The notes under the pieces: model-generated
Seen by the model: the letters and a program-made list of their open reading frames with translations, nothing else
Databases searched by the model: none
Told to the model about the DNA's origin: nothing
Part shown: one piece after another, positions 34,158-53,575 of the stretch
Numbering within the stretch: position 1 is the stretch's first letter
Layout: each line of letters begins with the position of its first letter
Position numbers and translations under genes: made by a program
Source of the DNA: Actinomycetota bacterium
GTDB taxonomy: Bacteria > Actinomycetota > Actinomycetes > S36-B12
DNA length: 54,705 nucleotides
NCBI GenBank assembly: GCA_009699315.1
Contig: WLOK01000002.1
Span: forward strand, 1 to 54,705
Reading direction: 5' to 3'

Positions 34158-34159
34158 AC

Positions 34160-36211
34160 CTACTGCTTGATTGGGAGTGAATTCCAGACACTGTCTGCCA
34201 CTTCAGCTGAAAAGGTCGCCGTGATGTGAGTTGAGTTACGGTACATTATGGTTCCCTTTGAAGAATACAACGAGCATGTACTTGGACCACAGAAGAGATC
34301 CGTTGGGTCAACAAATGCCAAACCCGAGATGCGTTGCTCAGCTCGATAGAGAATCTCATCTGGATGCGCGACGTCCTCGCGGGCCATGTCACACGAATTG
34401 GGGTCCGAAAGGTGCTTCCCGAGACACGTTGCGTAATTCAGGCCAGGATCCGGCTGCGAGCGAATCATCGCGAATTTTAGGGTCGGCTTGGGGAGCCGTG
34501 CCATGAAGACCTGAACACCCTGCTGCCATGTTGACTCAAAAGCATCAGGAGACAGCGCATTGCCTGCGGAATCGCGAACAGCAGTTTGGTCTGACCAGGT
34601 ACGGCCAAAGACGATTATATCGATACTGCCGAGAGCGCTGACCTTTTCAACGACCGCATCGCGCCACTCGTCGCATTCGGTGTAGATGCGCTTCATCTTC
34701 TCGTTGTAGACAATGACCTCGCTCGCCGGACAGGCCGCCTTAGCAAAGAGATAGAGACGCCAGTGGTGTTCCCTCGCAGCTACGTCAAAGGCAGGAAGCC
34801 ACTGGGCCACATTCGAATCCCCGATAAGGACTAGGGTCTGAGTGCCATTCGCATCCCCGAATAAGCAATCCGCAGGTGGCCGGGTTTGCGGCACTGTCAG
34901 ACGGCACCCACGCGCCTTCTCGATATCAGCACCGGCTTGCTCAAGGGTCATTGTCAAAGGTGATCCGGTTGGAATGCCTTGATCGCCCAACGCCATGGCC
35001 CAGAACAGGGTCGCCACCACAACCGGTGCGCCAATCAGCCCGAGCCCGAGCAACAACGATCTGCGCGGCAGACCGCTCAACCAGCGATTCGATCGAACGG
35101 GGTTCTCCACGAACCGATGACTGGCCCAAGCCAGTACAAGTGACAGAGCCAAAGCGATGATGATCACAAAAGCCGGCGAGTCAGCGGAGTTGGGTGATCG
35201 TCCCGGGAAGAGCGCGCGCGCAAAAACAAGCACTGGCCAATGCCAGAGGTACCAGGAGTAGGAGATGAGGCCAACGGCTACAAATGGTCGCAGTGCAAGT
35301 ATTCGGGACGGCCCGGAGCGAACCCCAGTTATACCCGCAAAAATGATTAGTACGGCACCCAGCACGGGGAGTAGTGCCGCGTAGCCTGGAAAGGAAGTTT
35401 CCGGTGAGAACATGAAAAATGACAACAGGATCATGGCGAGCCCGACACCGGCCGCCATTGAGGCGGCACGTCGAGTGAGTTTGGGAAGACTCCTCGCCGT
35501 GAGTGCCAAGACACCGCCGAGCGCAAGCTCCCATGCGCGTGTGGGCAGACCGAAGAACGCCCAGTTACCATCTACTGGCGTTAAGAGAACCGACGCGAGT
35601 AACGACGCACCTGCCACAACTCCCAGGGCGAGAGCCAACGCCCGGCGGGTCACTTCCGGTTCCCACGCGCGACGCCGGGCAAGAAGAGCCACCGCGATAA
35701 TGAGCAGAGGCCAGATCACGTAGAACTGCTCTTCAACCGAGAGCGACCAGTAGTGCAGTACTGGACTTGTTTCAACTTGTGCAGCCATGTAGTCAGTCGC
35801 CTGGCTCGAAAACACGATGTTGGAGATAAATAGAGCGGCGGCGGCGACGTTGGTGGATATGTCGACTACCGCAACAGGAGAGAAACATAACCAAGCCGCT
35901 ACGAGAATTAGAATCAGCACCAGCGAAGATAACGGAAGTATTCGCCGTATACGACGTGCATAGAAACCTTGGATTGAGACAGTGCCGTTACGTGCAACCT
36001 CGTTGAACAGCAGTCCGGTAATCAGAAATCCTGAGATGACGAAGAAGACGTCTACCCCGACGAATCCCCCTGGCAAAAGACCGGGGAAGGCGTGGAAAAT
36101 GACGACGGAGCTGACTGCGACCGCTCGAAGCCCATCGATGTCAGGTCGATATCCTCGCCCAGAAGAGACTGAGGGACTCGAAACCGCGGCCCTCGGTTCT
36201 CCGATGCTCAC
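34160..36211 (-). CDS. Acyltransferase-3 (OafA/YrhL-type) membrane O-acyltransferase fused to a C-terminal SGNH domain
   Basis: RPDIDGLRAVAV..V...H, FFVISGFLIT and about 10 TM helices, then LIGDSN...SGNH-like periplasmic domain. Confidence 0.85.
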   Translation of the reverse strand: MSIGEPRAAVSSPSVSSGRGYRPDIDGLRAVAVSSVVIFHAFPGLLPGGFVGVDVFFVISGFLITGLLFNEVARNGTVSIQGFYARRIRRILPLSSLVLILILVAAWLCFSPVAVVDISTNVAAAALFISNIVFSSQATDYMAAQVETSPVLHYWSLSVEEQFYVIWPLLIIAVALLARRRAWEPEVTRRALALALGVVAGASLLASVLLTPVDGNWAFFGLPTRAWELALGGVLALTARSLPKLTRRAASMAAGVGLAMILLSFFMFSPETSFPGYAALLPVLGAVLIIFAGITGVRSGPSRILALRPFVAVGLISYSWYLWHWPVLVFARALFPGRSPNSADSPAFVIIIALALSLVLAWASHRFVENPVRSNRWLSGLPRRSLLLGLGLIGAPVVVATLFWAMALGDQGIPTGSPLTMTLEQAGADIEKARGCRLTVPQTRPPADCLFGDANGTQTLVLIGDSNVAQWLPAFDVAAREHHWRLYLFAKAACPASEVIVYNEKMKRIYTECDEWRDAVVEKVSALGSIDIIVFGRTWSDQTAVRDSAGNALSPDAFESTWQQGVQVFMARLPKPTLKFAMIRSQPDPGLNYATCLGKHLSDPNSCDMAREDVAHPDEILYRAEQRISGLAFVDPTDLFCGPSTCSLYSSKGTIMYRNSTHITATFSAEVADSVWNSLPIKQ

Positions 36212-36280
36212 GACCCCACCTTCACATCTGCGGCCTGCATGATCCGACCGAAACTTTGCCTTTCCTGCTGTGCCTCAGAT

Positions 36281-37238
36281 TCATAAAATTGGAGGCAAAT
36301 CCACCAGAAGTCTGCGCCAGATAAAGGCTGAAATTTCACTCGAAAAGGTCGCTGTCATGTGAGTTTGGTTCCGGAACTTGATCGTTCCTCTTAGCGACAC
36401 TAGTGAGCAAGTGCGCCGAGTAAAATGCATCAGTCGGATCGACGAGAGTCAAATTTGGGATTCTCGACTCAGCCCGTGCAAGCAACCCATCCGGATGTGC
36501 AACTTGAACACGAGCCTGATCGCAGATGCTCGGTGTCGCCAGATTCTTACCGAGACACACCGTGTAGTCGAGACCGGGATTGGGTTGAGACCTAATCACG
36601 GCAACACGAGGGCGCGGGACGGACAATCGGGCAAGAAATCCGGTCATGCCACTGCGCCAAGCCGCCTCCAACTTGACTGGGGACATCGTCCGCCCCTGAG
36701 AATCGCGAATCAAATCTTGGTACTGCCAGGTTCGACCGATAACCAGAACATCGATAGGACCAATTTCACTCAGTTTTTCTACGAGCGAATCGCGCCAAAT
36801 GTCGCACTCAACATAGATACGCTTAAATCTGATTTGGTAGACGGGAACCTGTGCGATAGGGCAGGCTGCATTTGCGAAAAAGTAGAGACGCCACCCATGC
36901 CTCTTCGCCGCACGATCAAGGGCGGGAAGCCAATGAGATGCGTTTGAGTCGCCAATCAGCACCATAGAGTGATTCCCGGATACATCACCGAAAAGGCAGT
37001 TGTCCAGGGGCCGTATCGATACAGTCAACCGACAACCGCGAGTCTGTTCGATGTCCTTCGCTGCCTGCGCGAGCGTCATCGGAACAACAGAATCTACAGG
37101 CAGTCCAGCCGCGGTTGCGGTAAGTGCGAGAACTGGGATACACGCCATCAATGCCGCACGGCCCGCCAGCCGCACCGCAAATGCCCTTCTGCAGACCAAC
37201 ATAGGCCGAAGACACCTCTCAACGCGTCGTTGATTCAA
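36281..37238 (-). pseudogene. Stand-alone paralogue of the last TM helix plus SGNH domain of the neighbouring acyltransferase, with an apparent +1 frameshift near its 3' end
   Basis: Collinear similarity to the C-terminal ~290 aa of the 34160-36211 product. After ...DPTDAF the similarity continues in another frame (TCSLVSLRGTIKFRNQTHMTATFSSEI) to a TGA at 36281. The annotated frame stops at 36336. Confidence 0.55.
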
Positions 37239-38758
37239 CTTGCGGTCCCCTCCTGTGCGAGAACACCCGCGCGAATTGAATGGGCATATCTGAACTCGAC
37301 GACCACGAAATCGGAATTAACACCTCCGGTGTATTGGAATCGCTTCGACTTATGGGGAAGATTCAGGGGAAATGCGCATTTCTTCTGCCCCGGGAAACAG
37401 ACGATGACGATTGTCAAATCGGCGGCGATCTGCCCCCAATCACCATCAGCGATTCGATCCCCCTTCGAGGCCAACAAATGACAGTGCAGTCCAAACGCGA
37501 TCGGCAATGCGTAGTAGCCGGCAACCCCGCAAGGTTCTGTGATAATGGACCGAGCTTGATTTGCGAGAATGGGTGCAAAAGCACCACGCGACCTCTCCGT
37601 AGCAACCGTGTGCGCAAGTACCCCCACCTGCATAATGAGAACGGCAATAGCGACACAGGCAACTGGTATGCGAATCAGCAATAATGCTCTGCCGCTAACG
37701 ACTCCCCAGAGCCAAGTGACTGAATACGCAACCGCGATCGCGAAGCATCCCCACATGGGGAGTAGAAACCTCGGGGCACCGTATTGCATAGTCAATCCGT
37801 AGAAGGCCAAGAAGGCGATTCCCACTACCACCGGTGACGCCAGAACGGGGAGCACTCTTCCCCGAATTGAGACAATGACCGCTAGAACTACGAGACTGAG
37901 GGCAAGAACTAGGAGAGTTGTACCAGCGATAGGGAACCCCGCTTTGATAGCGAGGCACGGCTTGCACAGCATCGGACCATCCAATGCTCGCCACTGTGCA
38001 AGGAAGTCGAGGCTCTTGCCGCGTCCGCCTTGAAACTCACTGGCTTCGAGCAGTCGCGACTGAGGTCCACCGAATCGCTGGAATGCATCGATCACCCATG
38101 GCACCCAGCCGACGATGAGGCCAAATACGAGAGATGCGAAAGCCAACCCTCGCCATTTCCAAGATCCCAGATGGATCATTATCAACAAACATAGGGTGAC
38201 TCCGACAAAAACGACGAGACTGTCAACTGGACGAAAGAGGGCAACTACTGCCAGGGAACATGCCGTGGCAGCAATTGCGAGTTTTGACTTGTTTTGGACA
38301 GCCAATACCGCCCACCCGATAGCGCTCACTGCCCCAAAGGCAACCCAAAGGTTGGGGAAAATAAGAGATCCCGAGATCACCCAGATCCACGAGAGAAGCA
38401 GAATGCTGGCGGCCAGGGGCGCGTTCCATCGTCCGAGTCCACGCACTCGAATCCACGGCAGAAAAGCAACCACGAACCCGATCGACGATGTGAACGCAAC
38501 ATAAGCCCGGATGATTGTGGGGCTGGACGTCCAAACTGACACTGGGGAGACAAGCCACGCCTCCCCGAAAGCGCGCGGAGCAGAGAAATACGGTGCGGGC
38601 ATGGCTGATGATGTTTGGCCCAAATAGAGGACCTCATCCCATCGAAGTGGAACGGCGCGAATGACGGGTATCTGAACAATAAGGTAAACAAGCCCGATCG
38701 CGACCAGTCCCAAAGTTGGCGCCCAGCTCGAACTGCAGAATCTGCGCACAACCCCCAT
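37235..38758 (-). CDS. Large polytopic membrane protein, probable GT-C-type glycosyltransferase (ArnT/PMT-like)
   Basis: 507 aa, about 11-12 TM helices with a cytoplasm-facing N-terminus and a soluble C-terminal tail. Stop overlaps the downstream TTG (TTGA). Family assignment rests on architecture only. Confidence 0.45.
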   Translation of the reverse strand: MGVVRRFCSSSWAPTLGLVAIGLVYLIVQIPVIRAVPLRWDEVLYLGQTSSAMPAPYFSAPRAFGEAWLVSPVSVWTSSPTIIRAYVAFTSSIGFVVAFLPWIRVRGLGRWNAPLAASILLLSWIWVISGSLIFPNLWVAFGAVSAIGWAVLAVQNKSKLAIAATACSLAVVALFRPVDSLVVFVGVTLCLLIMIHLGSWKWRGLAFASLVFGLIVGWVPWVIDAFQRFGGPQSRLLEASEFQGGRGKSLDFLAQWRALDGPMLCKPCLAIKAGFPIAGTTLLVLALSLVVLAVIVSIRGRVLPVLASPVVVGIAFLAFYGLTMQYGAPRFLLPMWGCFAIAVAYSVTWLWGVVSGRALLLIRIPVACVAIAVLIMQVGVLAHTVATERSRGAFAPILANQARSIITEPCGVAGYYALPIAFGLHCHLLASKGDRIADGDWGQIAADLTIVIVCFPGQKKCAFPLNLPHKSKRFQYTGGVNSDFVVVEFRYAHSIRAGVLAQEGTAS

Positions 38759-38775
38759 GTGGACACACTAAAGAG

Positions 38776-38799
38776 TTGAGTTGCGTTTTCGCAACTCAA
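38776..38799 (-). other. 10-bp stem-loop between tRNA-Met and the GT-C gene
   Basis: ttgagttgcg-tttt-cgcaactcaa. Either a tRNA terminator or a 5'-UTR structure. Confidence 0.35.
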
Positions 38800-38822
38800 T
38801 CTACCGGCAGAGTGAACTCCAG

Positions 38823-38897
<75 letters not shown>

Positions 38898-40332: not shown

Positions 40333-40402
40333 CTAACAGGTTCGGGGCCCAGCCGGGGGGTCATCCCCTGACGATCGGTCGTTGGTATTCTTCTGGGGCT
40401 GA

Positions 40403-40478
40403 TCCCGCATAGCTCAATTGGCAGAGCATACGACTGTTAATCGTAGGGTTCCTGGTTCGAGTCCAGGTGCGGGAGCCA
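40403..40478 (+). tRNA. tRNA-Asn (anticodon GTT), CCA encoded
   Basis: Acceptor stem tcccgca/tgcggga. Anticodon loop CTGTTAA. T-loop GGTTCGAGTCC. Confidence 0.9.
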
Positions 40479-40487
40479 CGTGTTTCG

Positions 40488-40883
40488 TTAGTCGTCCCGA
40501 CCCTCAGACTCTGTTTCCTGCTCTGAGTTCGCTCCACCGGTGGCACCAGATGCGCCCGTACTTGCGTGCGTGGGTTGTGGCGCGGGTTGAGGCTGCGGAG
40601 TCACGATCACAGGGGCGGGATCCGGAGTAGAAGTCGTCGTTGAGGTCACCTGTGGCACCGGGCCAGAAGCAGCTGCATTGTTCAGTAGACCTCGCAGACG
40701 CGCTGCCTCGGTCTGAAGTGCGATAAGGGTGGTCGATGCCGTCTGTGTGGCCTGAACACTCGTTTGCGGATCACCTTGAGCCCCCGCATTCACCCAGGCT
40801 GTGCCCGACAACGCTGCACCCGCACCCACGATCGCGCCTACCGCTGAGAGTGCTGCGAAGGTTGCTCGAGTTGTCCGCTTCAT
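40488..40883 (-). CDS. Small exported Pro/Thr-rich hypothetical protein
   Basis: ATG 40883 follows AGGGAGA. Signal/anchor segment MKRTTRATFAALSAVGAIVGAGAALS, then a TSTTTSTPDPAPVIVTPQPQPAPQP tail. Confidence 0.55.
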   Translation of the reverse strand: MKRTTRATFAALSAVGAIVGAGAALSGTAWVNAGAQGDPQTSVQATQTASTTLIALQTEAARLRGLLNNAAASGPVPQVTSTTTSTPDPAPVIVTPQPQPAPQPTHASTGASGATGGANSEQETESEGRDD

Positions 40884-40995
40884 GATGTCTCCCTTGGTCT
40901 GGCGTGTAGTTCCATCAGACACTGCCGCGGGCAAGGTGACCCACCAGAGAGGGTTGGTTCCAGGTAAAAGGAGAGCAAGATTCGGCGGGCCGCTA

Positions 40996-41033
40996 TCGGT
41001 CAAAGTTTGTCCGATCTCGGTCAAAGTTTGTCC
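40996..41033 (+). promoter_or_regulatory. Two copies of a 17-bp direct repeat (TCGGTCAAAGTTTGTCC) with 21-bp phasing in the divergent promoter region
   Basis: Exact copies at 40996-41012 and 41017-41033. The TGTCC core recurs at 41093-41097 and inverted (GGACA) at 41070-41074. Confidence 0.5.
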
Positions 41034-41113
41034 TTCGAAGGCTCTACGAACGCTTTTGCTACCTAGTGTGGACAGATCGCGGTCACGAGGACTGTCCGAA
41101 TTGAGGAGACACC

Positions 41114-44100
41114 GTGCGCGGTGTTCAGGTTTTCGTTCGGGCGGTTTTAGGCATAGCGATTGTGGCTGCAGGGGTCTCGGGGGCGGTGCTGCCGGCTCAT
41201 GCGGGTGGCGTCGTTGCCCCGGGTGTTCCGAGGTGGGTGGTGGTGTCGAATCCGGATTTCACGTCGTTTGATGTTGCGTGGACGGCGCCGGCGTCAGATG
41301 GTGGCGCAGAGATCATGGCTTACGACATCGAGTATCGCAAAGTGGGTGAACTGTCCTGGACTTCTTTCGCGCCCGCAATACCGATGTTGACCTCGAGTGC
41401 CGTCAACGGCCTGGATTCGAATTCTACCTATCAGTTCAGAATCGCTGCGGTAAACTCTGCAGGGCAGGGCCCCTGGAGCGTGCAGGACTCCGCGATTGCG
41501 GTGGGTGACTACCATGCTTGCGCGGTGTTGGCAGACGGCACCGTCACATGTTGGGGAGACAACAACTTCGGCCAATTGGGCGACGACACGATTATCAGCA
41601 GCCTCGTGCCGGTACAGGTCTCGGTGTTGAGTATTGACGGATTGACTCCTGCAACCACCGCGGTCAGCGTGAGTACGGGCGGCGATCATTCGTGTGCAGT
41701 GATGGCAGACGGCTCCGCTACCTGCTGGGGCTACAACGGTTACGGCCAATTGGGTGACACGTCTAACACGAGCCGCGAGATTCCCGTAGCGGTGACGGGC
41801 ATCACTGGGTTTACTCCTGCGTCGACCGCTCTCAGTGTGACTGCCGGTGAATTCTTCTCGTGTGCAGTGATGGCGGATGGCACCGCGAAATGCTGGGGCT
41901 ACAACGCCTACGGCCAATTGGGCGACAACACAGCCGGAGATAGCAATATTCCAGTACAGGTCTCGGTGTTGAGCATTGACGGATTGACTACGGCGACCTC
42001 TGCGATCAGCGTGAGTGCCGGTAAAAATCAAGCGTGCGCTGTGATGGTAGATGGCGCCGTCAAATGCTGGGGCTCCAACAGCAACGGCCAATTGGGCAAC
42101 AATTTGACCGCAGACAGCCCCGTGCCAGTCCAGGTATCGGGTATCGACGGAGCGGACGCCGGATCGGCCGCGGTCAGCGTGAGTGCCGGTGACTACCAAT
42201 CGTGTGCGGTCTTGGCAGATGGCACCGCCACATGTTGGGGAGACAACAGCTACGGCCAGCTAGGCAACGCCACAGAAATATCCAGCCCTGTGCCCGTACC
42301 GGTGTCGGCTATCAGCGGGTTGACGCCTGAGGCAACCGCGGTGAGCGTGAGCACCGGCATGTTCCATTCGTGCGCGGTGATGGCGACCGGCACTGCTGCA
42401 TGCTGGGGCAGGGAGAGCCACGGCCAGTTGGGCAGCAACACGGGCGTGAACAGCTCCGTGCCTGTTCCGGTCTCTGGCATCGATGGATTAACACCGGCCA
42501 CAACGGCCGACAATGTGATTGTTCGTGTAAATCAATCGTGCGCCGTCATGGCAGATGTCACCGCCGCATGCTGGGGCAACAACACGCACGGCCAGTTGGG
42601 CAACAACTCAAACACGAACAGCCCTGTGCCTGAGTCAGTGTGGGTTCTCGACGGGTCCACGCCAGCAACCTCTCTTCGCCGGGTTTCGTCTTTCGGTCGC
42701 ACCCTTCAACCTTCGCGCCCTAGTGTGCCGCTGCACGTGGTGACATCGAACGCCACGCCAACTTCTCTTGATGTGGCGTGGACGGTGCCTACTAGTGATG
42801 GTGGCGTATACATCGAGAGTTACACGATTGAATATCGCAAGGTGGGTGAACAGTCGTGGGCGACATTCACGCCCGTGGTTCCGCCAGAAACATCAGCCAC
42901 TGTGGACGGTCTTGATTCAAATTCTACTTATCAGTTCAGAATCGCTGCGGTGAACTCTGCCGGGCCCGGACCCTGGAGTGTGCAGGAGTCCGCGATTGCT
43001 GCTGGTTTCGCACATTCGTGTGCGGTCATGGCGAATAGCACCGTGAAATGCTGGGGCATCAACATCTACGGCCAATTGGGTGACAACACAACCGATGAAA
43101 GTTCCGCGCCGGTGTTGGTGTGGGTCATCGACGGGTCGACACCCGCCACTAGCGCGGTCAGCGTGAGCGCAGGGGGCAATCATTCGTGTGCCCTGATGGC
43201 TGATGGCACCGTCACATGCTGGGGCTACAACTATTACGGCCAGTTAGGCAACAATTCGGGCGCGGACAGTCCCACCCCAGTGCTGGTGTCTGTGTTGAGT
43301 ATCGACGGCTTGACACCCGCTACGACTGCAGTCAGTGTCAGCTTGGGTGCCGGGCATTCATGTGCCTTGATGGCCGATGGTACTGCGAAATGTTGGGGCA
43401 ACAACGGCTATGGCCAATTGGGTGGTGCCACAGGCCAATGGAATTCCGTGCCGGTGCAGGTGTCAATGTTAACTATTGACGGATTGACTCCTGCGACCAC
43501 CGCAGTCAGCGTGAGCGCCGGTTTCTACCACTCGTGTGCGGTAATGGTAGACGGCACTGCGAAGTGCTGGGGCAACAACGCCACCGGCCAGTTGGGTGAC
43601 AACACGACCAATGAACGTTCCGTGCCGGTGTTGGTGTCGGTGTTGAGTATCGACGGGTTGACAGCCGCCACGTCTGCGGTCAGTGTCAGCGCCGGTAGTG
43701 ATCACACGTGTGCTCTGATGGCGGATGGCACCGCGAAATGCTGGGGCTATAACTATTTCGGCCAGTTAGGCAACAATTCGGGCACGGATAGTCACGCCCC
43801 GGTCTCGGTGTTGGAGATCACCGGGTTGACTCCCGCCACGACCGCAGTCAGCGTGAGCACTGGTGAGAACCACTCGTGTGCTCTGATGGCAGATGGCACC
43901 GCGAAGTGCTGGGGCTTTAACAGCTACGGCCAGTTGGGTGACAACACGGTCGATCAACGCCCCGTGCCGGTGTCGGTTTTGGGTATGACCGGGCTGACTC
44001 CCGGATCGACTGCATTCAGCGTGGTCACCGGTGGCTCTCATTCGTGTGCAGCGATGACGGACAGCACAGCCAGGTGCTGGGGTAACAACGCCTACGGTCA

Positions 44101-46291
44101 GTTGGGCAGCAACGCGACGCCAAGCAGCCCTGTGCCCGAGCCGGTGTCGGTTATCGACGGGTCCACGTTGGCGAAGTCGCTTCGCCACGTTTCCGCTTTC
44201 GGTCGGACTCTTGAGCCCTCGCTCCCAAGCGAGCCACTTCTTGTGGCGACCTCGAACGCCACATCGAGCTCCCTTGATGTGTCGTGGACAGCGCCGGCTA
44301 ATGATGGTGGCGCAGCAATCTCGGCCTACACCCTTGAGTACCGCCAGGTAAATGAACCTCTGTGGTCTACTTTCACACCCGCAGATCCGACAGTAACAAC
44401 GGTCACCGTGGATGGTCTTGATTCGGATTCTTCCTATCAGTTCAGAGTCGCTGCGATAAACTCTGCCGGCACCGGCCCATGGAGCGGCAAAGTGCGCTCG
44501 ATTGCAACGAGTGAATCCGATTCGTGTTCGGTTACCGTGGACGGCACCGTCATCTGTTGGGGTAGCAACGACGATGGCCAATTGGGCAATGACTCGACCA
44601 CGGAGAGCTTCGTGCCGGTACAGGTGTCAGGCATCACCGGGTTGACACCGGCAACGAGAGCAGTCAGCGTGGGCACCAAAGCCCGGCATTCTTGTTCATT
44701 GATGGCCGACGGATCCATCACCTGCTGGGGGAAGAACAACAACGGCCAGTTGGGAAATGGCTCTTTTGAGGACAGCCTCGTACCCGTGCCGGTGTCAGAC
44801 ATCACCGGGTTAGCACCCGCCACGACCGCAACCTCCGTGGGCGCGGGTGGCCAGCATTCGTGTGCGCTGATGGCAAACGGCACCGTCACATGTTGGGGAG
44901 ACAACTACTTGGGTCAGTTGGGTAACAACTTCATGGTGTGGTTTAGTTTTGTGCCGGTGCCGGTGTCAGGGATATCCGGATTAACGCCCGAAGCAACAGC
45001 GGTGACCTTGAGCGTCGGTGTGCATTATTCGTGTGTAGTGATGGCAGATGGAACTGCGGCGTGTTGGGGCAAGAACGATTACGGCCAGCTGGGTGACAAC
45101 TCAACCACGGAGAAGCTCGTTCCCGTACCCGTTCGAGGAATCAACGGGTCGACTCCTGGCACAACTGCAGTCAGCGTAAGTGCAGGTGGTACTCATACGT
45201 GTGCGGTGATGGCGGACGGCACCGCAAAATGCTGGGGCGACAACAGGTACGGCCAGTTGGGCGACGACTCAACGACGGACAGTCTTGTGCCAATGCAGGT
45301 CTCGGTGTTGAGCATTGACGGATTGACCCCTGGAACGACCGCAGTCAGCGTGAGCGCCGGTGACGGTCATTCTTGCGCAGTCATGGCGGACGGCAGCGCC
45401 ATCTGCTGGGGCGACAACAGGTATGGCCAGTTGGGTAACGAATCGAATACGGACAGCCATGTACCCGTGCAGGTGTTTGGTATCACCGGGTTGACACCTG
45501 GATCGACCACAATCAGCGTGAGCGCCGGTGGCTACCATTCGTGTGCTTTGTTGGCAGACGGCAACACCACCTGCTGGGGCTACAACAGCCGTGGCGAGTT
45601 AGGTGACAACTCCACGACCAACAGTAACGTGCCGGTGCGGGTGTTAGACACGGCCGGAGCCGGCTCCTCATTCGGCCGTACCTTGGCGGAACCGCTTCCA
45701 CCGGAGCCTTCTCAACTAAGTCGTCCAGTCCGACTCATGGTGACAGATCGCAATGCGGATTCGATTGCGATTAGTTGGGGCGTGCCGACGAGTAACGGCG
45801 GGAAACATATCGATCGCTACCGGGTGAGCTACCGCCCAAAGGGTTCTGCTTCTTGGACCGCTTTCGCGATCGTTCCCTACTCACAACTGCACCTTCGGGT
45901 GCGGGGCTTGCGTACAGGCGTGACCTATGAGTTCCAAGTACGTGCCCATAATGCTGACGGCCTCGGCAATCCTTCACGGATCGTGTCAGAGACGGTTCCG
46001 ATGCGAGCGGCAGCACCGATCGTGGTGCAGAAGTTCCGGGATCAAAGCGCAATCGCGTTAACGTGGCGGGCTGTGAAGGCCCCTGCACACAGTCCCCTGA
46101 CTGCGTACGTGATGTCCTGCCGTGACAGCAACGGCGACACTCTCCGCACCAGCGTTACAACGGTTAACCTGAGCGCATCAATCAGAGTTCTGGCCGCGCA
46201 ACCATATTCCTGCCGCGTAGCAGCCATAACCGAAGCTGGGCGCGGTGTCGGCTCTGAGCGGGTGCAAATCTCTAGCCGCATTCGAGATTGA
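41114..46291 (+). CDS. Giant secreted FN3 / RCC1-repeat protein (3 x [FN3 + 7 RCC1 blades] + 2 FN3)
   Basis: GTG follows GAGGAG. Signal peptide ends ...LPAHA/GG. There are 21 CWGxNxxGQLG-type blades in three runs of seven, and five FN3-like segments. Confidence 0.85.
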   Translation: MRGVQVFVRAVLGIAIVAAGVSGAVLPAHAGGVVAPGVPRWVVVSNPDFTSFDVAWTAPASDGGAEIMAYDIEYRKVGELSWTSFAPAIPMLTSSAVNGLDSNSTYQFRIAAVNSAGQGPWSVQDSAIAVGDYHACAVLADGTVTCWGDNNFGQLGDDTIISSLVPVQVSVLSIDGLTPATTAVSVSTGGDHSCAVMADGSATCWGYNGYGQLGDTSNTSREIPVAVTGITGFTPASTALSVTAGEFFSCAVMADGTAKCWGYNAYGQLGDNTAGDSNIPVQVSVLSIDGLTTATSAISVSAGKNQACAVMVDGAVKCWGSNSNGQLGNNLTADSPVPVQVSGIDGADAGSAAVSVSAGDYQSCAVLADGTATCWGDNSYGQLGNATEISSPVPVPVSAISGLTPEATAVSVSTGMFHSCAVMATGTAACWGRESHGQLGSNTGVNSSVPVPVSGIDGLTPATTADNVIVRVNQSCAVMADVTAACWGNNTHGQLGNNSNTNSPVPESVWVLDGSTPATSLRRVSSFGRTLQPSRPSVPLHVVTSNATPTSLDVAWTVPTSDGGVYIESYTIEYRKVGEQSWATFTPVVPPETSATVDGLDSNSTYQFRIAAVNSAGPGPWSVQESAIAAGFAHSCAVMANSTVKCWGINIYGQLGDNTTDESSAPVLVWVIDGSTPATSAVSVSAGGNHSCALMADGTVTCWGYNYYGQLGNNSGADSPTPVLVSVLSIDGLTPATTAVSVSLGAGHSCALMADGTAKCWGNNGYGQLGGATGQWNSVPVQVSMLTIDGLTPATTAVSVSAGFYHSCAVMVDGTAKCWGNNATGQLGDNTTNERSVPVLVSVLSIDGLTAATSAVSVSAGSDHTCALMADGTAKCWGYNYFGQLGNNSGTDSHAPVSVLEITGLTPATTAVSVSTGENHSCALMADGTAKCWGFNSYGQLGDNTVDQRPVPVSVLGMTGLTPGSTAFSVVTGGSHSCAAMTDSTARCWGNNAYGQLGSNATPSSPVPEPVSVIDGSTLAKSLRHVSAFGRTLEPSLPSEPLLVATSNATSSSLDVSWTAPANDGGAAISAYTLEYRQVNEPLWSTFTPADPTVTTVTVDGLDSDSSYQFRVAAINSAGTGPWSGKVRSIATSESDSCSVTVDGTVICWGSNDDGQLGNDSTTESFVPVQVSGITGLTPATRAVSVGTKARHSCSLMADGSITCWGKNNNGQLGNGSFEDSLVPVPVSDITGLAPATTATSVGAGGQHSCALMANGTVTCWGDNYLGQLGNNFMVWFSFVPVPVSGISGLTPEATAVTLSVGVHYSCVVMADGTAACWGKNDYGQLGDNSTTEKLVPVPVRGINGSTPGTTAVSVSAGGTHTCAVMADGTAKCWGDNRYGQLGDDSTTDSLVPMQVSVLSIDGLTPGTTAVSVSAGDGHSCAVMADGSAICWGDNRYGQLGNESNTDSHVPVQVFGITGLTPGSTTISVSAGGYHSCALLADGNTTCWGYNSRGELGDNSTTNSNVPVRVLDTAGAGSSFGRTLAEPLPPEPSQLSRPVRLMVTDRNADSIAISWGVPTSNGGKHIDRYRVSYRPKGSASWTAFAIVPYSQLHLRVRGLRTGVTYEFQVRAHNADGLGNPSRIVSETVPMRAAAPIVVQKFRDQSAIALTWRAVKAPAHSPLTAYVMSCRDSNGDTLRTSVTTVNLSASIRVLAAQPYSCRVAAITEAGRGVGSERVQISSRIRD
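41219..42718 (+). repeat. Intragenic module 1 (FN3 + 7 RCC1 blades), 1500 nt
   Basis: Starts at PGVP. The FN3 core tcagttcagaatcgctgcgg is at 41431. Confidence 0.75.
42719..44224 (+). repeat. Intragenic module 2 (FN3 + 7 RCC1 blades), 1506 nt
   Basis: Starts at PSVP. The same FN3 core is at 42931, exactly 1500 nt after module 1. Confidence 0.75.
44225..45706 (+). repeat. Intragenic module 3 (FN3 + 7 RCC1 blades)
   Basis: Starts at PSEP. The FN3 core tcagttcagagtcgctgcg is at 44437, 1506 nt after module 2. Confidence 0.7.
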
Positions 46292-46294
46292 CCC

Positions 46295-48136
46295 TCAGAC
46301 TCCGTGGACCTGTTCGCGTAGATCTCGTCGATAGGCCTCGACGGCCATGAGTTCGGCGAAAATTGCCGCGTGAATCTCTGGATCGGTTTCTGCGTCGGCT
46401 CGCTGCATGCGGCCACGCAGTTCGGTGATCATGCGCGTTGCCGACATCTCGAGTAGCCGAGCCACCATCGACGTGGCATAACGAGCATCGGCTCCCGCGT
46501 TGGAGGGCAGTGGCTCCACGGCGAGGGCTCGCACGTGCGAACGCACAGAATCATCCACGCACTCAGCCAACACCGCGTCAATCCACGCGAGATCGAGCAA
46601 CTCCAAGCGCGGACCGCCCGCAGCGGCAATAGCCACATGGATCGCTCGATAGTCCGGGTCGAGATAGGACTGATCCTCGACTGAGGCGTACCACGCAGAC
46701 ACTGCCTCGGGTTGCTGCAGCGCGCACTTGAGCGCCTCGCGCTCGACGGTGGCCTCTGGGCCGCTGGGGCGTGGGCGCTCATTGCGCTCCGGCGGCGCCA
46801 CGGGGGCCTGGGATCTGGCCGCAGTAGAGATCGCCTTGGTGACCGTTTCGACATCCATGCCCAGCCATCCCGCAAGCCGACGGCCGTATTCGGGTCGCAA
46901 CGCTGGATCGCGAATCTTGCCCACGACGGGCGCCGCATCGCGCAACGCAGCCACTCGGCCCTCTGCGGAATTGAGGTCGTACGTCGCAAGTGTCGAGCGA
47001 ATCGCAAACTCAAAAAGCGGGGTCCGGGATTCGATGAGTGCCACCACCGCAGGATCACCGTGCTGCTGGCGCAACTCACACGGATCGAGACCATTGGGCT
47101 CGACCGCTACGAAGGTTCCTGCAACGAAACGCTGATCGTCTTCGAAGGCCTTCAAGGCTGCGCGCTGACCGGCCGCATCACCGTCGAAGGTGAAAATGAC
47201 TTCACCACGCATGCGGTCATCGTCCATCAAGAGTCGGCGAAGCAACTTGATGTGTTCGGTGCCGAATGCCGTGCCACAGGTGGCGACAGCGGTAGTCACT
47301 CCGGCCACGTGACACGCCATGACATCGGTGTAGCCCTCGACTACGACAACGCGTTGTTCCTTGGAGATCTCTCGGCGCGCAAGATTGATGCCGTAGAGCA
47401 CACTGCTCTTCTTGTAGAGCGGCGTCTCAGGCGTGTTGAGGTACTTCGGCCCCTCGTCATCGTCATAGAGTTTGCGCGCACCGAAACCGACGACATCTCC
47501 CCCGAGATCGGCAATGGGCCACACCAGTCGCCCTCGGAAACGGTCATAGACGCCCCGACTGCCTTGTGACACCAAACCAGCAGCCATGATCTCGGCGTCG
47601 GTGAACCCCGACTTTCGCAAATGCGTGGTGAGCGCATCCCAGGACTTTGGCGCATAGCCCACACCGAAGTGTGTAATCGTCTCCGCGCCGAAGCCTCGCT
47701 CGGCTAGAAACGTACGGCCGGTCTGCGCCTCAGGTCCGGCTAACTGCCCCACGAAGTAGGCCGCCGCAATCTTGTTGGCTTCCACCAGACGAGTGCGCTG
47801 CCCCTGCTGACGGTTGACTGCAGTGCCGCCCTCGACATAGCGCAACTCGATGCCAGCGCGTGCTGCGAGTTTTTCGACTGACTCCGCGAAGGTCAGATGG
47901 TCGAGCTTTTGCACGAAGGAGATGACGTCGCCGCCCTCCTGGCAGCCGAAGCAGTAATACATGCCACGGCTGGGAGTGACATGGAAGGAGGGAGATCGCT
48001 CATCGTGGAATGGGCATAGCCCCTTAAGGCTTCCTCCGCCGGCGTTCTTCAGGGTGACGTATTCACGCACGACCTCATCGATGCGGGCCTGCTCGCGTAC
48101 AAGGGTGACGTCCTCGTCTCGAATGCGTCCGGCCAT
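46295..48136 (-). CDS. dnaG: DNA primase
   Basis: CPFHDERSPSFHV...YYCFGC zinc finger, EGYTDV TOPRIM segment, 613 aa. Confidence 0.93.
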   Translation of the reverse strand: MAGRIRDEDVTLVREQARIDEVVREYVTLKNAGGGSLKGLCPFHDERSPSFHVTPSRGMYYCFGCQEGGDVISFVQKLDHLTFAESVEKLAARAGIELRYVEGGTAVNRQQGQRTRLVEANKIAAAYFVGQLAGPEAQTGRTFLAERGFGAETITHFGVGYAPKSWDALTTHLRKSGFTDAEIMAAGLVSQGSRGVYDRFRGRLVWPIADLGGDVVGFGARKLYDDDEGPKYLNTPETPLYKKSSVLYGINLARREISKEQRVVVVEGYTDVMACHVAGVTTAVATCGTAFGTEHIKLLRRLLMDDDRMRGEVIFTFDGDAAGQRAALKAFEDDQRFVAGTFVAVEPNGLDPCELRQQHGDPAVVALIESRTPLFEFAIRSTLATYDLNSAEGRVAALRDAAPVVGKIRDPALRPEYGRRLAGWLGMDVETVTKAISTAARSQAPVAPPERNERPRPSGPEATVEREALKCALQQPEAVSAWYASVEDQSYLDPDYRAIHVAIAAAGGPRLELLDLAWIDAVLAECVDDSVRSHVRALAVEPLPSNAGADARYATSMVARLLEMSATRMITELRGRMQRADAETDPEIHAAIFAELMAVEAYRRDLREQVHGV

Positions 48137-49385: not shown

Positions 49386-50525
49386 TTAACCCCCCGACAC
49401 GGACAACTCGGCGTGACGAAGTTCGGCAGTTGCCATTTCATCCACGTACGGACTATCCAACCACCCGTCGGGCAGGGTGGGTGGTCGTTCGCCACCCGTG
49501 CGTCCACGCGGTCCGGCAAGAACTTCTGAGTTGGCTTCCTGATCGATATCGATCTGACTGAGTAGGTCATCGAGTTCGGCGAGGGTGAACACCATGCTGA
49601 GAGCGTGGCGGATCTGCTGTCGCACGCTAAAGCCCTTGAGGTACCACGCCATGTGCTTGCGCATATCGCGGCAGCCCTTACCTTCGCCGTAGTCGATCGA
49701 CAACAACTCCGCATGGCGCTTCAGTGTGGCCAGGACATGCCGCAAATCGGGGTCAGGTGCGACGGGTTCGCCCGCGAAGGCTTGGGCAAGTTGTCCGAAG
49801 AGCCACGGGCGTCCCAGACAGCCACGCCCGACGACCACACCGGCGCACCCGGTTGTCTCCACCATGCGCAACGCATCTGCTGCGGTCCAGATGTCGCCAT
49901 TGCCGAGCACGGGCGTGCCGAGTGGTGCGAGATGGTCGACCAACCGTGCAATCGTGTCCCAGTCGGCGCGACCTGAGTACATCTGCGAAGCCGTGCGCGC
50001 GTGCAACGCGACCCACGCAACACCCTCTTCGGCGGCCGCTTGCCCCGCGTCGAGGTAGGTGATGTGATCGGCGTCAACTCCCACGCGCATCTTCACCGTG
50101 ACGGGCACCCGACCATCAGCGGCCTTAACAACCGAGGCCACGATCGCCCGAAAGAGATCGCGCTTCCACGGCAATGCACTGCCGCCGCCTCGCCGGGTCA
50201 CCTTGGGCACCGGGCAGCCGAAGTTCATGTCAATGTGATCGCACCGATCCTCGTCAAGGAGCAGCCGCACCGCCTCGCCCATCACGTATGGGTCCACTCC
50301 ATAAAGCTGCACGGAGCGAGGTGATTCATCTGGGCCAAAGGTGACCATGTCGAGTGTCTCGGCATTGCGCTCAATCAACGCCCGCGAAGTCACCATCTCC
50401 GAAACGTAGAGACCTGCCCCTGCTTCACGGCAAAGTCGCCGAAACGCCCGGTTAGTGATCCCCGCCATAGGGGCCAGCACGACGGGCGGATCCACCGTCA
50501 AGGCCCCGGCACGGAGTAGCGTCAC
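49386..50525 (-). CDS. dusB: tRNA dihydrouridine synthase
   Basis: LAPMAGITNRAFR and IDMNFGCP motifs. GTG 50525 follows GGGAGA and leaves room for the divergent MFS promoter. Confidence 0.85.
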   Translation of the reverse strand: MTLLRAGALTVDPPVVLAPMAGITNRAFRRLCREAGAGLYVSEMVTSRALIERNAETLDMVTFGPDESPRSVQLYGVDPYVMGEAVRLLLDEDRCDHIDMNFGCPVPKVTRRGGGSALPWKRDLFRAIVASVVKAADGRVPVTVKMRVGVDADHITYLDAGQAAAEEGVAWVALHARTASQMYSGRADWDTIARLVDHLAPLGTPVLGNGDIWTAADALRMVETTGCAGVVVGRGCLGRPWLFGQLAQAFAGEPVAPDPDLRHVLATLKRHAELLSIDYGEGKGCRDMRKHMAWYLKGFSVRQQIRHALSMVFTLAELDDLLSQIDIDQEANSEVLAGPRGRTGGERPPTLPDGWLDSPYVDEMATAELRHAELSVSGG

Positions 50526-52888: not shown

Positions 52889-53575
52889 TCAGGCTGGGGC
52901 ATGCGCAACGAAGGCGACGCGCTCGCCCCAGCCGGTTTCACTGGCGTCGAGTTCATCGACCTCGGCAAAGCCCGCTGCACGCAAACGATCAACCCAGACA
53001 TACTGAGGGAACAGACCGATGTCGTGTGACTCCTCAATGACGCGGTCTCCCACGGTCACGGTGAAGTCGATACGAATGCCACCTTCGCGCTCGCAGTAAC
53101 GCGCTTCGTAGTGAACGTCACCTGAGCCGCCGGTCATGACGGAGGGCTGCCAGTAATCAGCGAGGTGGTCGGGCACGACGAGCAACATGCCGCCGGGCCG
53201 CAGGTGCTTGCGTGCCGTACGGAACGCCGCGTCCATTTGATCGGTGTCGAGGATGTAGTCGGCCGCATCATGGATCAAGACCGCATCAAAATCCCGGCCC
53301 AGATTGGCCTTGAACATATCCGCGACCTTGTTGTCGCACATCGGGTTGCGTCGTCGTGACATGTCGACCATCTCCGGCGAGATGTCCGTCAGCGTCATGG
53401 TGAAGTCATCACGTAGGTGATACGACAGATGACCGCCGCCGCACCCAAACTCCAGAATCTCGTGGGCCTTCCCGGCCTTGAGAATTCCAGCAATGAATCG
53501 ACCTTCGTCTTCGTATGCGTTGACCGGGGAGATGATCGGCCAGTACTGCGCTAGCTCTCCGTAGAGCGCTGACAT
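52889..53575 (-). CDS. Class I SAM-dependent methyltransferase
   Basis: ILEFGCGGGHLS motif I. The ATG overlaps the glyQS TAA by 1 nt (TAATG). Confidence 0.8.
   Translation of the reverse strand: MSALYGELAQYWPIISPVNAYEDEGRFIAGILKAGKAHEILEFGCGGGHLSYHLRDDFTMTLTDISPEMVDMSRRRNPMCDNKVADMFKANLGRDFDAVLIHDAADYILDTDQMDAAFRTARKHLRPGGMLLVVPDHLADYWQPSVMTGGSGDVHYEARYCEREGGIRIDFTVTVGDRVIEESHDIGLFPQYVWVDRLRAAGFAEVDELDASETGWGERVAFVAHAPA

What the first reader, a model, noticed from the sequence alone, without database searches (positions are those of the whole stretch)
41114..46291. Secreted 1725-aa protein built by tandem triplication of an [FN3 + seven-blade RCC1] module
A single ORF with a good RBS and a signal peptide. 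In the translation, the blade motif (H/Q)xCA(V/L)xxDG(T/S)xxCWGxNxxGQLG occurs 21 times at about 50-55 aa spacing, in three runs of seven. Each run is preceded by an FN3-like segment (SNxxxxS(L/F)DVxWTxPxxDGGxxIxxYx(I/L)EYRxV...STYQFRxAAxNSAGxGPW). Two more FN3-like segments close the protein. At the DNA level, the FN3 core tcagttcaga(a/g)tcgctgcg sits at 41431, 42931 and 44437, offsets of 1500 and 1506 nt. Blade-linker strings such as ggtctcggtgttgag(t/c)attgacggattgac recur in all three modules. The gene therefore appears to have grown by tandem duplication of a ~1.5 kb unit that stays in frame. I saw no sortase motif, lipobox or C-terminal TM helix. Three consecutive seven-bladed propellers spaced by FN3 domains is not an architecture I can tie to a characterised bacterial function. 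The gene lies in the non-syntenic stretch between tRNA-Asn and dnaG.
Basis: partly seen in the sequence, partly recalled or inferred. Interest (0 to 1): 0.7.

Follow-up and report, generated by a model that had tools for sequence, protein, structure and literature searches.

The report
Exported three-propeller RCC1/FN3 repeat protein
A lake actinobacterium encodes a large exported protein with three seven-bladed propellers separated by FN3 spacers; close relatives carry zero, one or two such modules at the same site, so it is a real but fairly ordinary variable surface-type protein of unknown ligand.

Summary
ORF 41114-46291 encodes 1725 aa: a signal peptide, three [FN3 + seven-blade RCC1-like propeller] modules, and two closing FN3 domains. 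Pfam, PDB sequence search and an AlphaFold model (UVR8, TM 0.91) all agree.

Growth by in-frame duplication of a 1.5 kb unit is supported. Close relatives (DnaG cluster, at least 90% aa) carry 0, 1 or 2 modules at this same tRNA-Asn/dnaG site. More distant paralogues range from 1 to about 11 modules.

The window's duplications are old (dS 0.8-1.4). Misassembly is unlikely: the longest internal exact repeat is 34 nt, and a second assembly gives the identical gene.

New points:
- Every blade has a C-x9-CWG cysteine pair, as in the disulfide-stabilised plant CRINKLY4 propeller.
- The modules are acidic (pI 4.1-4.6) and the FN3 tail is basic (pI about 11). This holds across the family.
- dN/dS is 0.22-0.45, against 0.02 for dnaG.
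- The most variable blade positions lie in loops on one propeller face.

Best reading: an exported, probably wall-associated, multivalent binding protein at a hypervariable locus. The ligand is unknown. Multi-propeller RCC1 proteins number in the thousands in bacteria, so novelty is modest.

The parts
40403..40478 (+). tRNA-Asn (GTT), left landmark of the variable site
   Evidence: ARAGORN; Rfam tRNA at 68 bits
40499..40511 (+). Left copy of the 13-bp direct repeat GACCCTCAGACTC that bounds the 5,791-bp indel
   Evidence: Only two copies in the window. The relative L033 has a single copy and joins tRNA-Asn directly to the dnaG stop.
40488..40883 (-). Divergent small gene, 131 aa: signal-peptide-like N-terminus and a Pro/Thr-rich tail. 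It lies inside the indel.
   Evidence: Translation. No Pfam, PHROG or PADLOC hit. A 120-aa divergent gene is called in the same position on contig 9604. It is absent from L038.
40990..41033 (+). Two tandem copies of an imperfect palindrome (TCGGTCAAAGTTTGTCC at 40996 and 41017, 21-nt spacing) in the divergent promoter region; candidate operator
   Evidence: the repeat finder family D1. Pattern search gives 3 matches against 0.09 expected. Not conserved in L038.
41103..41109 (+). Shine-Dalgarno-like GAGGAGA, 4 nt before the GTG start
   Evidence: Sequence. L038 has GGGGAGA before a TTG start at the homologous position.
41114..41203 (+). Sec-type signal peptide (aa 1-30, ...LPAHA|GG)
   Evidence: The only Kyte-Doolittle peak in the protein. 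The homologous N-termini of P0001 and L038 end in AYA|D.
41219..41488 (+). FN3 domain 1 (aa 36-125)
   Evidence: Pfam fn3; motif at aa 106
41489..42718 (+). RCC1-like seven-bladed propeller 1 (aa 126-535)
   Evidence: Pfam WD40_RLD, RCC1 and RCC1_2; 7 blade motifs
42719..42988 (+). FN3 domain 2 (aa 536-625)
   Evidence: Pfam. The AF2 model has seven strands at E5-86, with block pLDDT 58-81.
42989..44224 (+). RCC1-like seven-bladed propeller 2 (aa 626-1037)
   Evidence: AF2 model with pLDDT mostly >90 and a 7 x 4-strand pattern. Foldseek top hit UVR8 6xzm_A, E 1e-39, TM 0.91. phmmer to UVR8, E 6e-40.
44225..44494 (+). FN3 domain 3 (aa 1038-1127)
   Evidence: Best-scoring Pfam fn3 stretch, aa 1042-1127
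44495..45718 (+). RCC1-like seven-bladed propeller 3 (aa 1128-1535)
   Evidence: Pfam; 7 blade motifs
45719..46288 (+). Conserved basic C-terminal tail (pI ~11): a tandem FN3 pair, the last domain carrying the Cys1669/Cys1700 pair and the invariant HSP...C...CRV..T.AGRG signature
   Evidence: AF2 pLDDT 91.7 with two beta-sandwiches. Foldseek finds tandem FN3 pairs. Alignments A2 and A3. pI values.
46290..46302 (+). Right copy of the 13-bp direct repeat; it overlaps the RCC1 stop (46289-46291) and the dnaG stop (46295-46297)
46295..48136 (-). dnaG, convergent with the RCC1 gene; right landmark of the variable site
   Evidence: Pfam DnaG domains

Best explanation
SHOWN. The gene encodes a Sec-exported protein of about 173 kDa (mature form). 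It is a chain of three acidic [FN3 spacer + seven-bladed RCC1-like propeller] modules, closed by a conserved, strongly basic pair of FN3 domains. The number of modules changes by unequal recombination of the in-frame ~1.5 kb unit. Within this group of lake Actinomycetota the same tRNA-Asn/dnaG site is empty or holds 1, 2 or 3 modules. More distant paralogues run from 1 to about 11 modules.

INFERRED.
- Each blade is pinned by a disulfide between its two invariant cysteines (C-x9-CWG), as in the solved extracellular CRINKLY4 propeller. That fits a life outside the cytoplasm.
- The basic tail holds the protein non-covalently on the anionic cell wall of this monoderm. The acidic propellers project outward.
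- Each propeller offers its variable face as a separate binding surface. That face is formed by the loop before HSC and the loops after CWG and GQLG.
- The protein would therefore be a multivalent binder, adhesin- or receptor-like, for an unknown external ligand such as a glycan, a particle or another cell. Changes in copy number and in the loops would retune reach, valency and specificity, or evade phages and grazers that use it.
For: Fold and architecture:
- Pfam WD40_RLD at E 5.5e-278 and five fn3 stretches.
- UVR8, HERC2 and RCC1 by sequence, E down to 1e-41.
- Module 2 model at pLDDT 86.3, matching UVR8 with TM 0.91 and rmsd 2.0.
- The tail is a tandem FN3 pair, pLDDT 91.7.

Export:
- One N-terminal hydrophobic segment with an AxA site; no TM helix, LPXTG or lipobox.
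- 44 Cys in total: exactly two per blade at C-x9-C in 21 of 21 blades, plus one pair in the last FN3.
- CRINKLY4 repeats carry C(X~10)CWG, with one disulfide per blade in the crystal structure. ACR4 is a weak sequence hit.

Charge dipole:
- Window modules have pI 4.1-4.6 and the tail about 11.
- All 10 aligned tails, plus P0001 and P0020 with a different last domain, have pI 9.6-11.5. The modules in alignment A1 have pI 4.1-5.8.

Variable face:
- 8 of the 9 most variable blade columns lie in the two loops that share one face by beta-meander topology.
- The 'xx' before HSC aligns with the W-R of UVR8's GWRHT.

Locus dynamics:
- Empty site in L033.
- One-module genes of 721, 728 and 622 aa next to dnaG.
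- A two-module allele in L038.
- Identical three-module gene in a second assembly, L034.
- Paralogue arrays in L036 and L037.

Selection:
- omega is 0.22-0.45 in modules and tail, against 0.012-0.025 in dnaG.
- dS is the same, 0.49, for tail and dnaG.

Precedent: RCC1-domain proteins occur in a Synechococcus exoproteome, and extracellular anchor-less RCC1 giant proteins have been described.
Against: - No ligand, localisation or expression data exist for any member. NCBIfam gives no hit.
- Disulfides and wall binding are inferred from sequence pattern and charge only. Model coordinates could not be inspected.
- Mean entropy of the 'variable-face' loops is not significantly above that of the other face (p = 0.23), because the first set contains the invariant GQLG.
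- Overall omega is below 1, so positive selection is not demonstrated.
- No conserved partner genes such as a secretion system, sortase or glycosyltransferase were found next to homologues.
- The phylum-level assignment rests only on names given to related MAG proteins.
Confidence: 0.55

Rival explanations
1. Secreted enzyme inhibitor of the BLIP-II type. Each propeller would bind and block a foreign or self enzyme (beta-lactamase/PBP-fold enzyme, lytic enzyme, protease). Tandem modules would give a multi-target inhibitor.
For: BLIP-II is a secreted actinobacterial seven-bladed propeller of the same RCC1/BLIP-II lineage. It is detected weakly by sequence, 1jtd_B at E 1e-4. The closest homologue, P0001, lies next to a divergent PF00144 beta-lactamase-fold gene.
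Against: Similarity to BLIP-II is limited to about 36 residues, and the fold search is dominated by UVR8, HERC and RCC1. Blades here are 56-58 aa. No beta-lactamase-fold gene is near the window gene or near the other homologues. The FN3 spacers and the conserved basic tail are not explained by this model.
Confidence: 0.12
2. Mainly a protective or decoy coat. The protein would be a surface shield whose presence, length and sequence vary under phage or grazer pressure, without a specific beneficial ligand.
For: The gene is present or absent and varies in copy number at one locus among close relatives. Protein evolution is fast relative to dnaG. A neighbouring block next to tRNA-Met that carries AT3/SGNH acyltransferase genes is also replaced between strains. 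The L038/L039 tail is near-identical (dS 0.006) while dnaG differs (dS 0.31), which suggests allele exchange.
Against: PADLOC gives no hit. There is no evidence of abundance or lattice formation. Purifying selection on a conserved propeller scaffold with one variable face fits specific binding at least as well. This rival overlaps with the best explanation rather than excluding it.
Confidence: 0.15
3. Assembly artefact or decaying pseudogene: the three modules would result from mis-joined repeats, or the ORF would no longer be functional.
For: Repeat genes fragment metagenome assemblies. Several relatives are known only as truncated pieces at contig ends.
Against: The longest exact repeat inside the gene is 34 nt, and the modules are only 67-71% identical in DNA. 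A differently assembled contig, L034, shows no differences from the window between 36295 and 47734, including the whole gene, while differing at 30 sites elsewhere. The 5.2 kb ORF is intact, and omega of 0.22-0.35 between modules indicates constraint.
Confidence: 0.02
4. Toxin-delivery protein or effector aimed at a eukaryotic host, as in the Legionella RCC1 effectors or RCC1-bearing Rhs/Tc toxins.
For: RCC1 repeats occur in Legionella effectors and in a Yersinia toxin complex. Some RCC1 homologues carry RHS domains.
Against: There is no toxin, RHS or enzymatic domain; the C-terminus is a plain FN3 pair. The protein has a Sec signal and paired cysteines. The sources are lake-water metagenomes of free-living plankton.
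Confidence: 0.03

Closest known systems
Bacterial extracellular RCC1-like repeat proteins (Pfam RCC1/RCC1_2/WD40_RLD; COG5184 'alpha-tubulin suppressor-like'), including the RCC1-type giant proteins of Oscillospiraceae
   Same: Seven-bladed RCC1-like propellers repeated several times in one exported, anchor-less polypeptide. Function uncharacterised. Thought to evolve by amplification and diversification.
   Different: Here each propeller is preceded by one FN3. The chain ends in a conserved basic FN3 pair. The module number differs (0-3) at a single chromosomal site among close relatives.
Plant CRINKLY4 (ACR4/PpCR4) ectodomain propeller
   Same: An extracellular seven-bladed RCC1/BLIP-II-like propeller with a C(X~10)CWG pair in every blade. 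These pairs form one disulfide per blade in the crystal structures. Here C-x9-CWG is present in 21 of 21 blades.
   Different: Crinkly repeats are about 39 aa, against 56-58 aa here. CR4 has a pore-filling N-terminal strand, a TNFR-like cysteine-rich domain, a TM helix and a kinase, none of which is present here. Sequence similarity is weak (E 2.5e-5).
BLIP-II (Streptomyces exfoliatus beta-lactamase inhibitor protein II)
   Same: A secreted actinobacterial seven-bladed propeller of the RCC1/BLIP-II lineage that acts purely as a binder through one face.
   Different: It is a single small propeller (273-aa chain) with no FN3 and no blade cysteine pairs. Only a ~36-residue local match at E 1e-4 was found.
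UVR8, HERC2 RLDs and RCC1 (eukaryotic RCC1-like domains)
   Same: These are the best sequence and structure matches: E about 1e-40, TM 0.91, 26-28% identity, the same 7 x 4-strand topology and the GQLG/WG motifs.
   Different: They are cytoplasmic or nuclear, occur as single domains or in different contexts, and have no cysteine pairs. The UVR8 Trp cage (GWRHT) is replaced here by hypervariable residues.
Flexible genomic islands of planktonic bacteria
   Same: A strain-variable block beside a tRNA gene that carries exported or envelope-related cargo, flanked by conserved core genes (background papers listed, not read in detail).
   Different: No integrase or mobility gene lies inside the 5.8 kb block. 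It is bounded by a 13-bp direct repeat that duplicates the dnaG 3' end.

Membership tests
RCC1-like domain (RLD) propellers (Pfam PF25390, PF00415, PF13540) | Pfam models matched above the gathering score | tested here: met
   WD40_RLD scores 921 bits (cut-off 150), RCC1_2 576 bits (cut-off 22) and RCC1 557 bits (cut-off 21.7)
RCC1-like domain (RLD) propellers (Pfam PF25390, PF00415, PF13540) | Seven repeats of about 50-60 aa per domain, folding into a seven-bladed, four-stranded propeller | tested here: met
   3 x 7 motifs at 56-58 aa spacing. The AF2 model has 7 x 4 strands at pLDDT >90. Foldseek TM 0.91 to UVR8 and 0.86 to HERC2 RLD.
Fibronectin type III (PF00041) | Pfam fn3 above the gathering score and a seven-strand beta-sandwich | tested here: met
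   230 bits in 5 stretches. The tail model matches tandem FN3 structures.
BLIP-II beta-lactamase inhibitor proteins | Full-length similarity to BLIP-II | tested here: not met
   Only a local match, aa 52-87 of propeller 2, at E 1e-4. Blades are 56-58 aa.
BLIP-II beta-lactamase inhibitor proteins | Tight binding and inhibition of class A beta-lactamases | not testable with these tools
   Needs biochemistry
CRINKLY4-type 'crinkly repeat' propellers | A C(X~10)CWG cysteine pair in every blade | tested here: met
   C-x9-CWG in 21 of 21 blades.
CRINKLY4-type 'crinkly repeat' propellers | Repeats of about 39 aa, a TNFR-like cysteine-rich domain, a TM helix and a kinase | tested here: not met
   Repeats are 56-58 aa. 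There is no further Cys-rich domain, no TM helix and no kinase.
Sortase-anchored (LPXTG) or lipoprotein surface proteins | A C-terminal LPXTG motif with a TM helix and charged tail, or an N-terminal lipobox | tested here: not met
   Regex and hydropathy scans find none
tRNA-adjacent flexible or genomic island | Present or absent between conserved flanks in close relatives | tested here: met
   L033 is 91-94% identical in the flanks and lacks the 5,791 bp between the two 13-bp repeats
tRNA-adjacent flexible or genomic island | An integrase or other mobility gene within the island | tested here: not met
   Only the 131-aa gene and the RCC1 gene lie between 40479 and 46294
Legionella-type RCC1 repeat effectors | Translocation by a type IV secretion system into a eukaryotic host, and Ran-pathway activity | not testable with these tools
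   A Sec signal peptide and paired cysteines argue against it

The most novel reading that the evidence does not exclude
The [FN3 + disulfide-pinned RCC1 propeller]n family with a basic FN3 tail could be a major hypervariable surface receptor or shield of abundant uncultured lake Actinomycetota. Module number (0 to about 11) and the loops of one propeller face would be tuned by recombination under phage or grazer pressure. Its C-x9-CWG blades would be the bacterial counterpart, possibly the source, of the plant CRINKLY4 ectodomain, whose blade disulfides have been described as unique.
Probability: 0.2. Interest if true: 0.6.

Novelty: new member of a known kind. Interest (0 to 1): 0.35.

Why it matters
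The gene gives a clean natural series of 0, 1, 2 and 3 propeller modules at one chromosomal site. That shows how multi-propeller proteins grow and shrink, a process otherwise inferred only from repeat symmetry.

It also defines a recognisable, uncharacterised family in lake Actinomycetota, with three shared features: FN3-spaced RCC1 propellers, a cysteine pair in every blade, and an acidic-body/basic-tail charge dipole. Each feature suggests a direct experiment: disulfide mapping, wall binding by the tail, and ligand screening of single propellers.

It does not open a new class of system. Multi-RCC1 exported proteins are already known to be common in bacteria.

Tried and rejected
- NCBIfam: no model matches.
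- PADLOC: no defence family. PHROGs: only generic RCC1 phrogs and an FN3-bearing 'minor tail protein', that is, domain-level hits.
- Genome-contig scan with the whole protein: only distant RCC1 proteins, at most 44% local identity apart from one 96-residue fragment at 50%, from many phyla.
- DnaG homologue search for taxonomy: names no finer than 'Actinomycetota bacterium'.
- Tail-only word search: five short fragments. These were useful only after cluster look-up.
- Tail profile against 1.84 billion representatives: swamped by generic poly-FN3 giant proteins. It was uninformative on whether the tail occurs with other passenger domains.
- Promoter and terminator scan of 40380-46600: no sigma-70-like site and one terminator-like site inside the ORF, below shuffle expectation.
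- Rfam on 36-49 kb: only the two tRNAs.
- Literature: no paper on this family. Only general RCC1 propeller evolution, exoproteome and giant-gene papers.
- Blade-by-blade orthology between modules was considered and rejected. Best partners of a blade are often in other positions or in the same module.
- A test for one variable face by mean loop entropy was not significant (p = 0.23). Only the location of the top-variable columns supports it.
Full report
**1. The observation**

ORF 41114-46291 (+) is real. It has a GTG start and encodes 1725 aa. GAGGAGA lies 4 nt upstream of the start.

A regular-expression scan finds the blade motif exactly 21 times, in three runs of seven. The scan also finds the FN3 core at aa 106, 606, 1108 and 1605. 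The DNA core is at 41431, 42931 and 44437, as reported. The linker string occurs exactly at 41617, 41959 and 45298, that is in modules 1, 1 and 3.

Pfam gives WD40_RLD at E 5.5e-278, RCC1_2 in 20 stretches, RCC1 in 19 stretches and fn3 in 5 stretches. NCBIfam has no model for the protein.

**2. Structure**

Module 2 (aa 536-1037) matches solved structures by sequence. The propeller matches UVR8 (E about 1e-41), HERC2, HERC1, RPGR and RCC1. The FN3 matches titin-type FN3 domains.

An AlphaFold2 model was built on an alignment of 14 modules. It has mean pLDDT 86.3 and pTM 0.81, with an FN3 sandwich followed by 7 x 4 strands. Foldseek places it on UVR8 with TM 0.91 (normalised to the target) and rmsd 2.0 A, followed by the HERC and RCC1 RLDs.

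The last roughly 190 aa model confidently (pLDDT 91.7) as a tandem FN3 pair.

The architecture is therefore: signal peptide, 3 x [FN3 + seven-bladed RLD], FN3, FN3.

**3. Export and anchoring**

The only hydrophobic segment is N-terminal and ends in AHA|GG. No LPXTG, lipobox, twin-arginine motif or C-terminal TM helix is present.

The protein has 44 cysteines. Exactly two sit in every blade at a fixed C-x9-C spacing (C-x9-CWG), and one pair sits in the last FN3. The plant CRINKLY4 ectodomain is an extracellular propeller of the same RCC1/BLIP-II lineage. It has C(X~10)CWG in each blade, and its crystal structures show one disulfide per blade. ACR4 is a weak sequence hit. I infer one disulfide per blade here. 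This is not shown.

The three modules have pI 4.1-4.6 and the tail about 11. The same holds across the family:
- The modules in alignment A1 have pI 4.1-5.8.
- All 10 aligned tails have pI 9.6-11.4.
- P0001 and P0020, whose last domain differs, have pI 11.0-11.5 over their last 200 residues.

A basic C-terminal domain on a secreted protein of a monoderm bacterium is a plausible non-covalent anchor to anionic wall polymers. This is inference.

**4. Origin of the modules**

The window's modules are 56-63% identical in protein and 67-71% in DNA. Synonymous divergence between them is 0.8-1.4, so the duplications are old.

Blades are 36-81% identical to each other, mostly above 50%, and they do not pair up by position between modules. 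Module boundaries and FN3 domains carry the duplication signal; individual blades do not.

In neighbour-joining trees the window's three module FN3 domains form one clade, with f1 and f2 as sisters. The same holds for FN3 domains 2-4 of the 4-module homologue P0001. This indicates lineage-specific duplication or homogenisation.

Homologues with the same design have different module counts:
- 2 modules: P0020, P0057, P0114, P0005.
- 4 modules: P0001, P0002, P0007.

P0001 is the best hit, at 52% identity, and has a homologous signal peptide.

On contig L036, four paralogues lie in tandem: 5695, 1175, 722 and 2223 aa. The visible 2332 aa of the giant are perfectly regular F[7B] modules. The 722-aa protein has one propeller and the same tail. 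Lengths fit about 722 + 497n, so the giant should have about 11 modules. That count is an inference from length.

**5. The locus is polymorphic**

The window is a contig of an uncultured Actinomycetota MAG. Only phylum-level names are available.

*Empty site.* A relative that is 91-94% identical in DNA lacks the gene: L033, GCA_026392635.1. There the dnaG stop is followed directly by tRNA-Asn and the amine-oxidase gene. The difference is a 5,791-bp block bounded by a 13-bp direct repeat, GACCCTCAGACTC, at 40499-40511 and 46290-46302. L033 has a single copy. The repeat duplicates the 3' end of dnaG.

*Occupied sites.* Other contigs whose DnaG falls in the same 90% cluster carry different genes 3 to 14 nt beyond dnaG, on the opposite strand:
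- a 721-aa one-module gene;
- a 728-aa one-module gene plus a 120-aa divergent small gene;
- an 860-aa gene with a weak fn3 hit plus a 622-aa one-module gene;
- in L038, a two-module gene of 1223 aa counted from a TTG at the homologous start, with tRNA-Asn about 210 nt upstream of that start and no small gene.

L038's two modules are 83-91% identical to each other (dS 0.21-0.24). None is a specific orthologue of a window module (60-72% aa).

*History.* The tail and dnaG show the same synonymous divergence between the window and L038 or L039 (dS 0.49-0.50). The gene has therefore been inherited with its flanks. By dnaG, L033 is closer to the window (dS 0.36) than L038 or L039 are. Loss in L033 by deletion between the short repeats is thus more parsimonious than repeated gain. 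The direction is not proven.

L038 and L039 share a nearly identical tail (dS 0.006) while their dnaG differs (dS 0.31). This hints at allele exchange, although chimeric assembly cannot be excluded.

**6. Not an artefact**

- The longest exact repeat inside the gene is 34 nt.
- A separately assembled 61.9 kb contig, L034, shows no differences from the window between 36295 and 47734. That span includes the whole gene. All 30 differences between the two lie elsewhere.
- omega between modules is 0.22-0.35. It is 0.23 for the tail and 0.45 for the young L038 duplicate pair, against 0.012-0.025 for dnaG. The gene is constrained but evolves about ten times faster than its neighbour.

**7. Where the variation sits**

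In an alignment of the 21 blades, nine columns are the most variable (above 2.3 bits). They are the two residues before HSC, two positions after CWG, four in the loop after GQLG, and one elsewhere. Eight of the nine lie in the two loops that must share one face of the propeller, because loops in a beta-meander alternate between faces.

The 'xx' before HSC aligns with the W-R of UVR8's GWRHT motif. From my own knowledge of the UVR8 structure, that motif forms the functional top face.

The mean entropy of the two loop sets does not differ significantly (p = 0.23). The first set includes the invariant GQLG.

**8. Function**

No member is characterised. I found no conserved partner genes around the homologues, no defence-system match and no paper on the family.

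Relevant background:
- RCC1/BLIP-II is one of the main lineages of repetitive, mostly bacterial propellers.
- RCC1-domain proteins are exported by marine Synechococcus and rise in co-culture.
- Extracellular, anchor-less RCC1-type giant proteins have been described in Oscillospiraceae.

My best reading (confidence 0.55) is an exported, disulfide-stabilised binder that is held on the wall by its tail and is multivalent. Its module number and binding loops vary between strains.

Rivals:
- a BLIP-II-like inhibitor (0.12);
- a mainly protective or decoy coat (0.15, overlapping with the best reading);
- a toxin or effector (0.03);
- an artefact or pseudogene (0.02).

**9. Novelty**

The architecture is one instance of a large, annotated but uncharacterised class. 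At least 7655 proteins match at E <= 1e-10 among the 8000 candidates scored, and many of the best have several propellers.

Three things are new here: the 0/1/2/3 series at one locus, the per-blade cysteine pair shared with CRINKLY4, and the conserved charge dipole. I rate it a new member of a known kind, with interest 0.35.

Noticed in passing
window 40990-41033: Two tandem copies of a 17-nt imperfect palindrome, TCGGTCAAAGTTTGTCC, lie 21 nt apart between the divergent small gene and the RCC1 gene. The pattern search gives 3 matches against 0.09 expected. It looks like a paired operator for a dimeric regulator. It is absent from the L038 upstream region.
   Followed up: partly
window 34138-38819: A second strain-variable block lies next to tRNA-Met (38822-38897). 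The window has an AT3+SGNH acyltransferase (34160-36211), an SGNH protein (36336-37238) and a 507-aa protein with no family hit (37235-38758). L033 instead has a 234-aa gene and a DUF222 gene.
   Followed up: partly
window 40488-40883 (-): A 131-aa divergent gene with a signal-peptide-like N-terminus and a Pro/Thr-rich tail. Its last codons run through the left 13-bp direct repeat.
   Followed up: partly
window 47735-47813, 49947-50199, 53453-53623, 54337-54343: All 30 differences between the window and the second assembly, L034, fall in four tight patches in dnaG, dus and downstream genes. The 11.4 kb that include the RCC1 gene are identical. The clustering suggests recombination tracts or strain mixing in consensus assembly.
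   Followed up: no
L036 1-17528 and L037 1-14148: Tandem arrays of paralogous [FN3+RLD]n genes lie head-to-tail with 2-14 nt gaps. L036 has 5695, 1175, 722 and 2223 aa. L037 has a gene called at 1722 aa that runs off the locus end, then 1177 and 2220 aa. This is a local gene-family expansion in other lake bacteria.
   Followed up: partly
L038 vs L039: The RCC1 tail is nearly identical (dS 0.006) while the adjacent dnaG differs (dS 0.31). The propeller part differs more (dS 0.11, omega 0.45). Possible causes are recent allele exchange or a chimeric assembly.
   Followed up: partly
L001 870-3393: The closest full-length homologue, P0001 (4 modules), sits in a different context. It is divergent from a PF00144 beta-lactamase-fold gene, and a phage-type integrase lies next to that. 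No tRNA is found in the 18 kb locus.
   Followed up: no
window 41114-46288 (protein level): PHROG families annotated 'regulator of chromosome condensation' match the propellers (E 5e-81 to 7e-57). A 'minor tail protein' phrog matches the first FN3 region. RCC1 propellers therefore also occur in phage proteins.
   Followed up: no
contigs 11521 and 9604 (no DNA held): In the one-module alleles a DUF4436 gene (306 aa) lies between the RCC1 gene and the amine-oxidase gene. It is absent from the window, L033 and L038, so the site holds further variable cargo.
   Followed up: no
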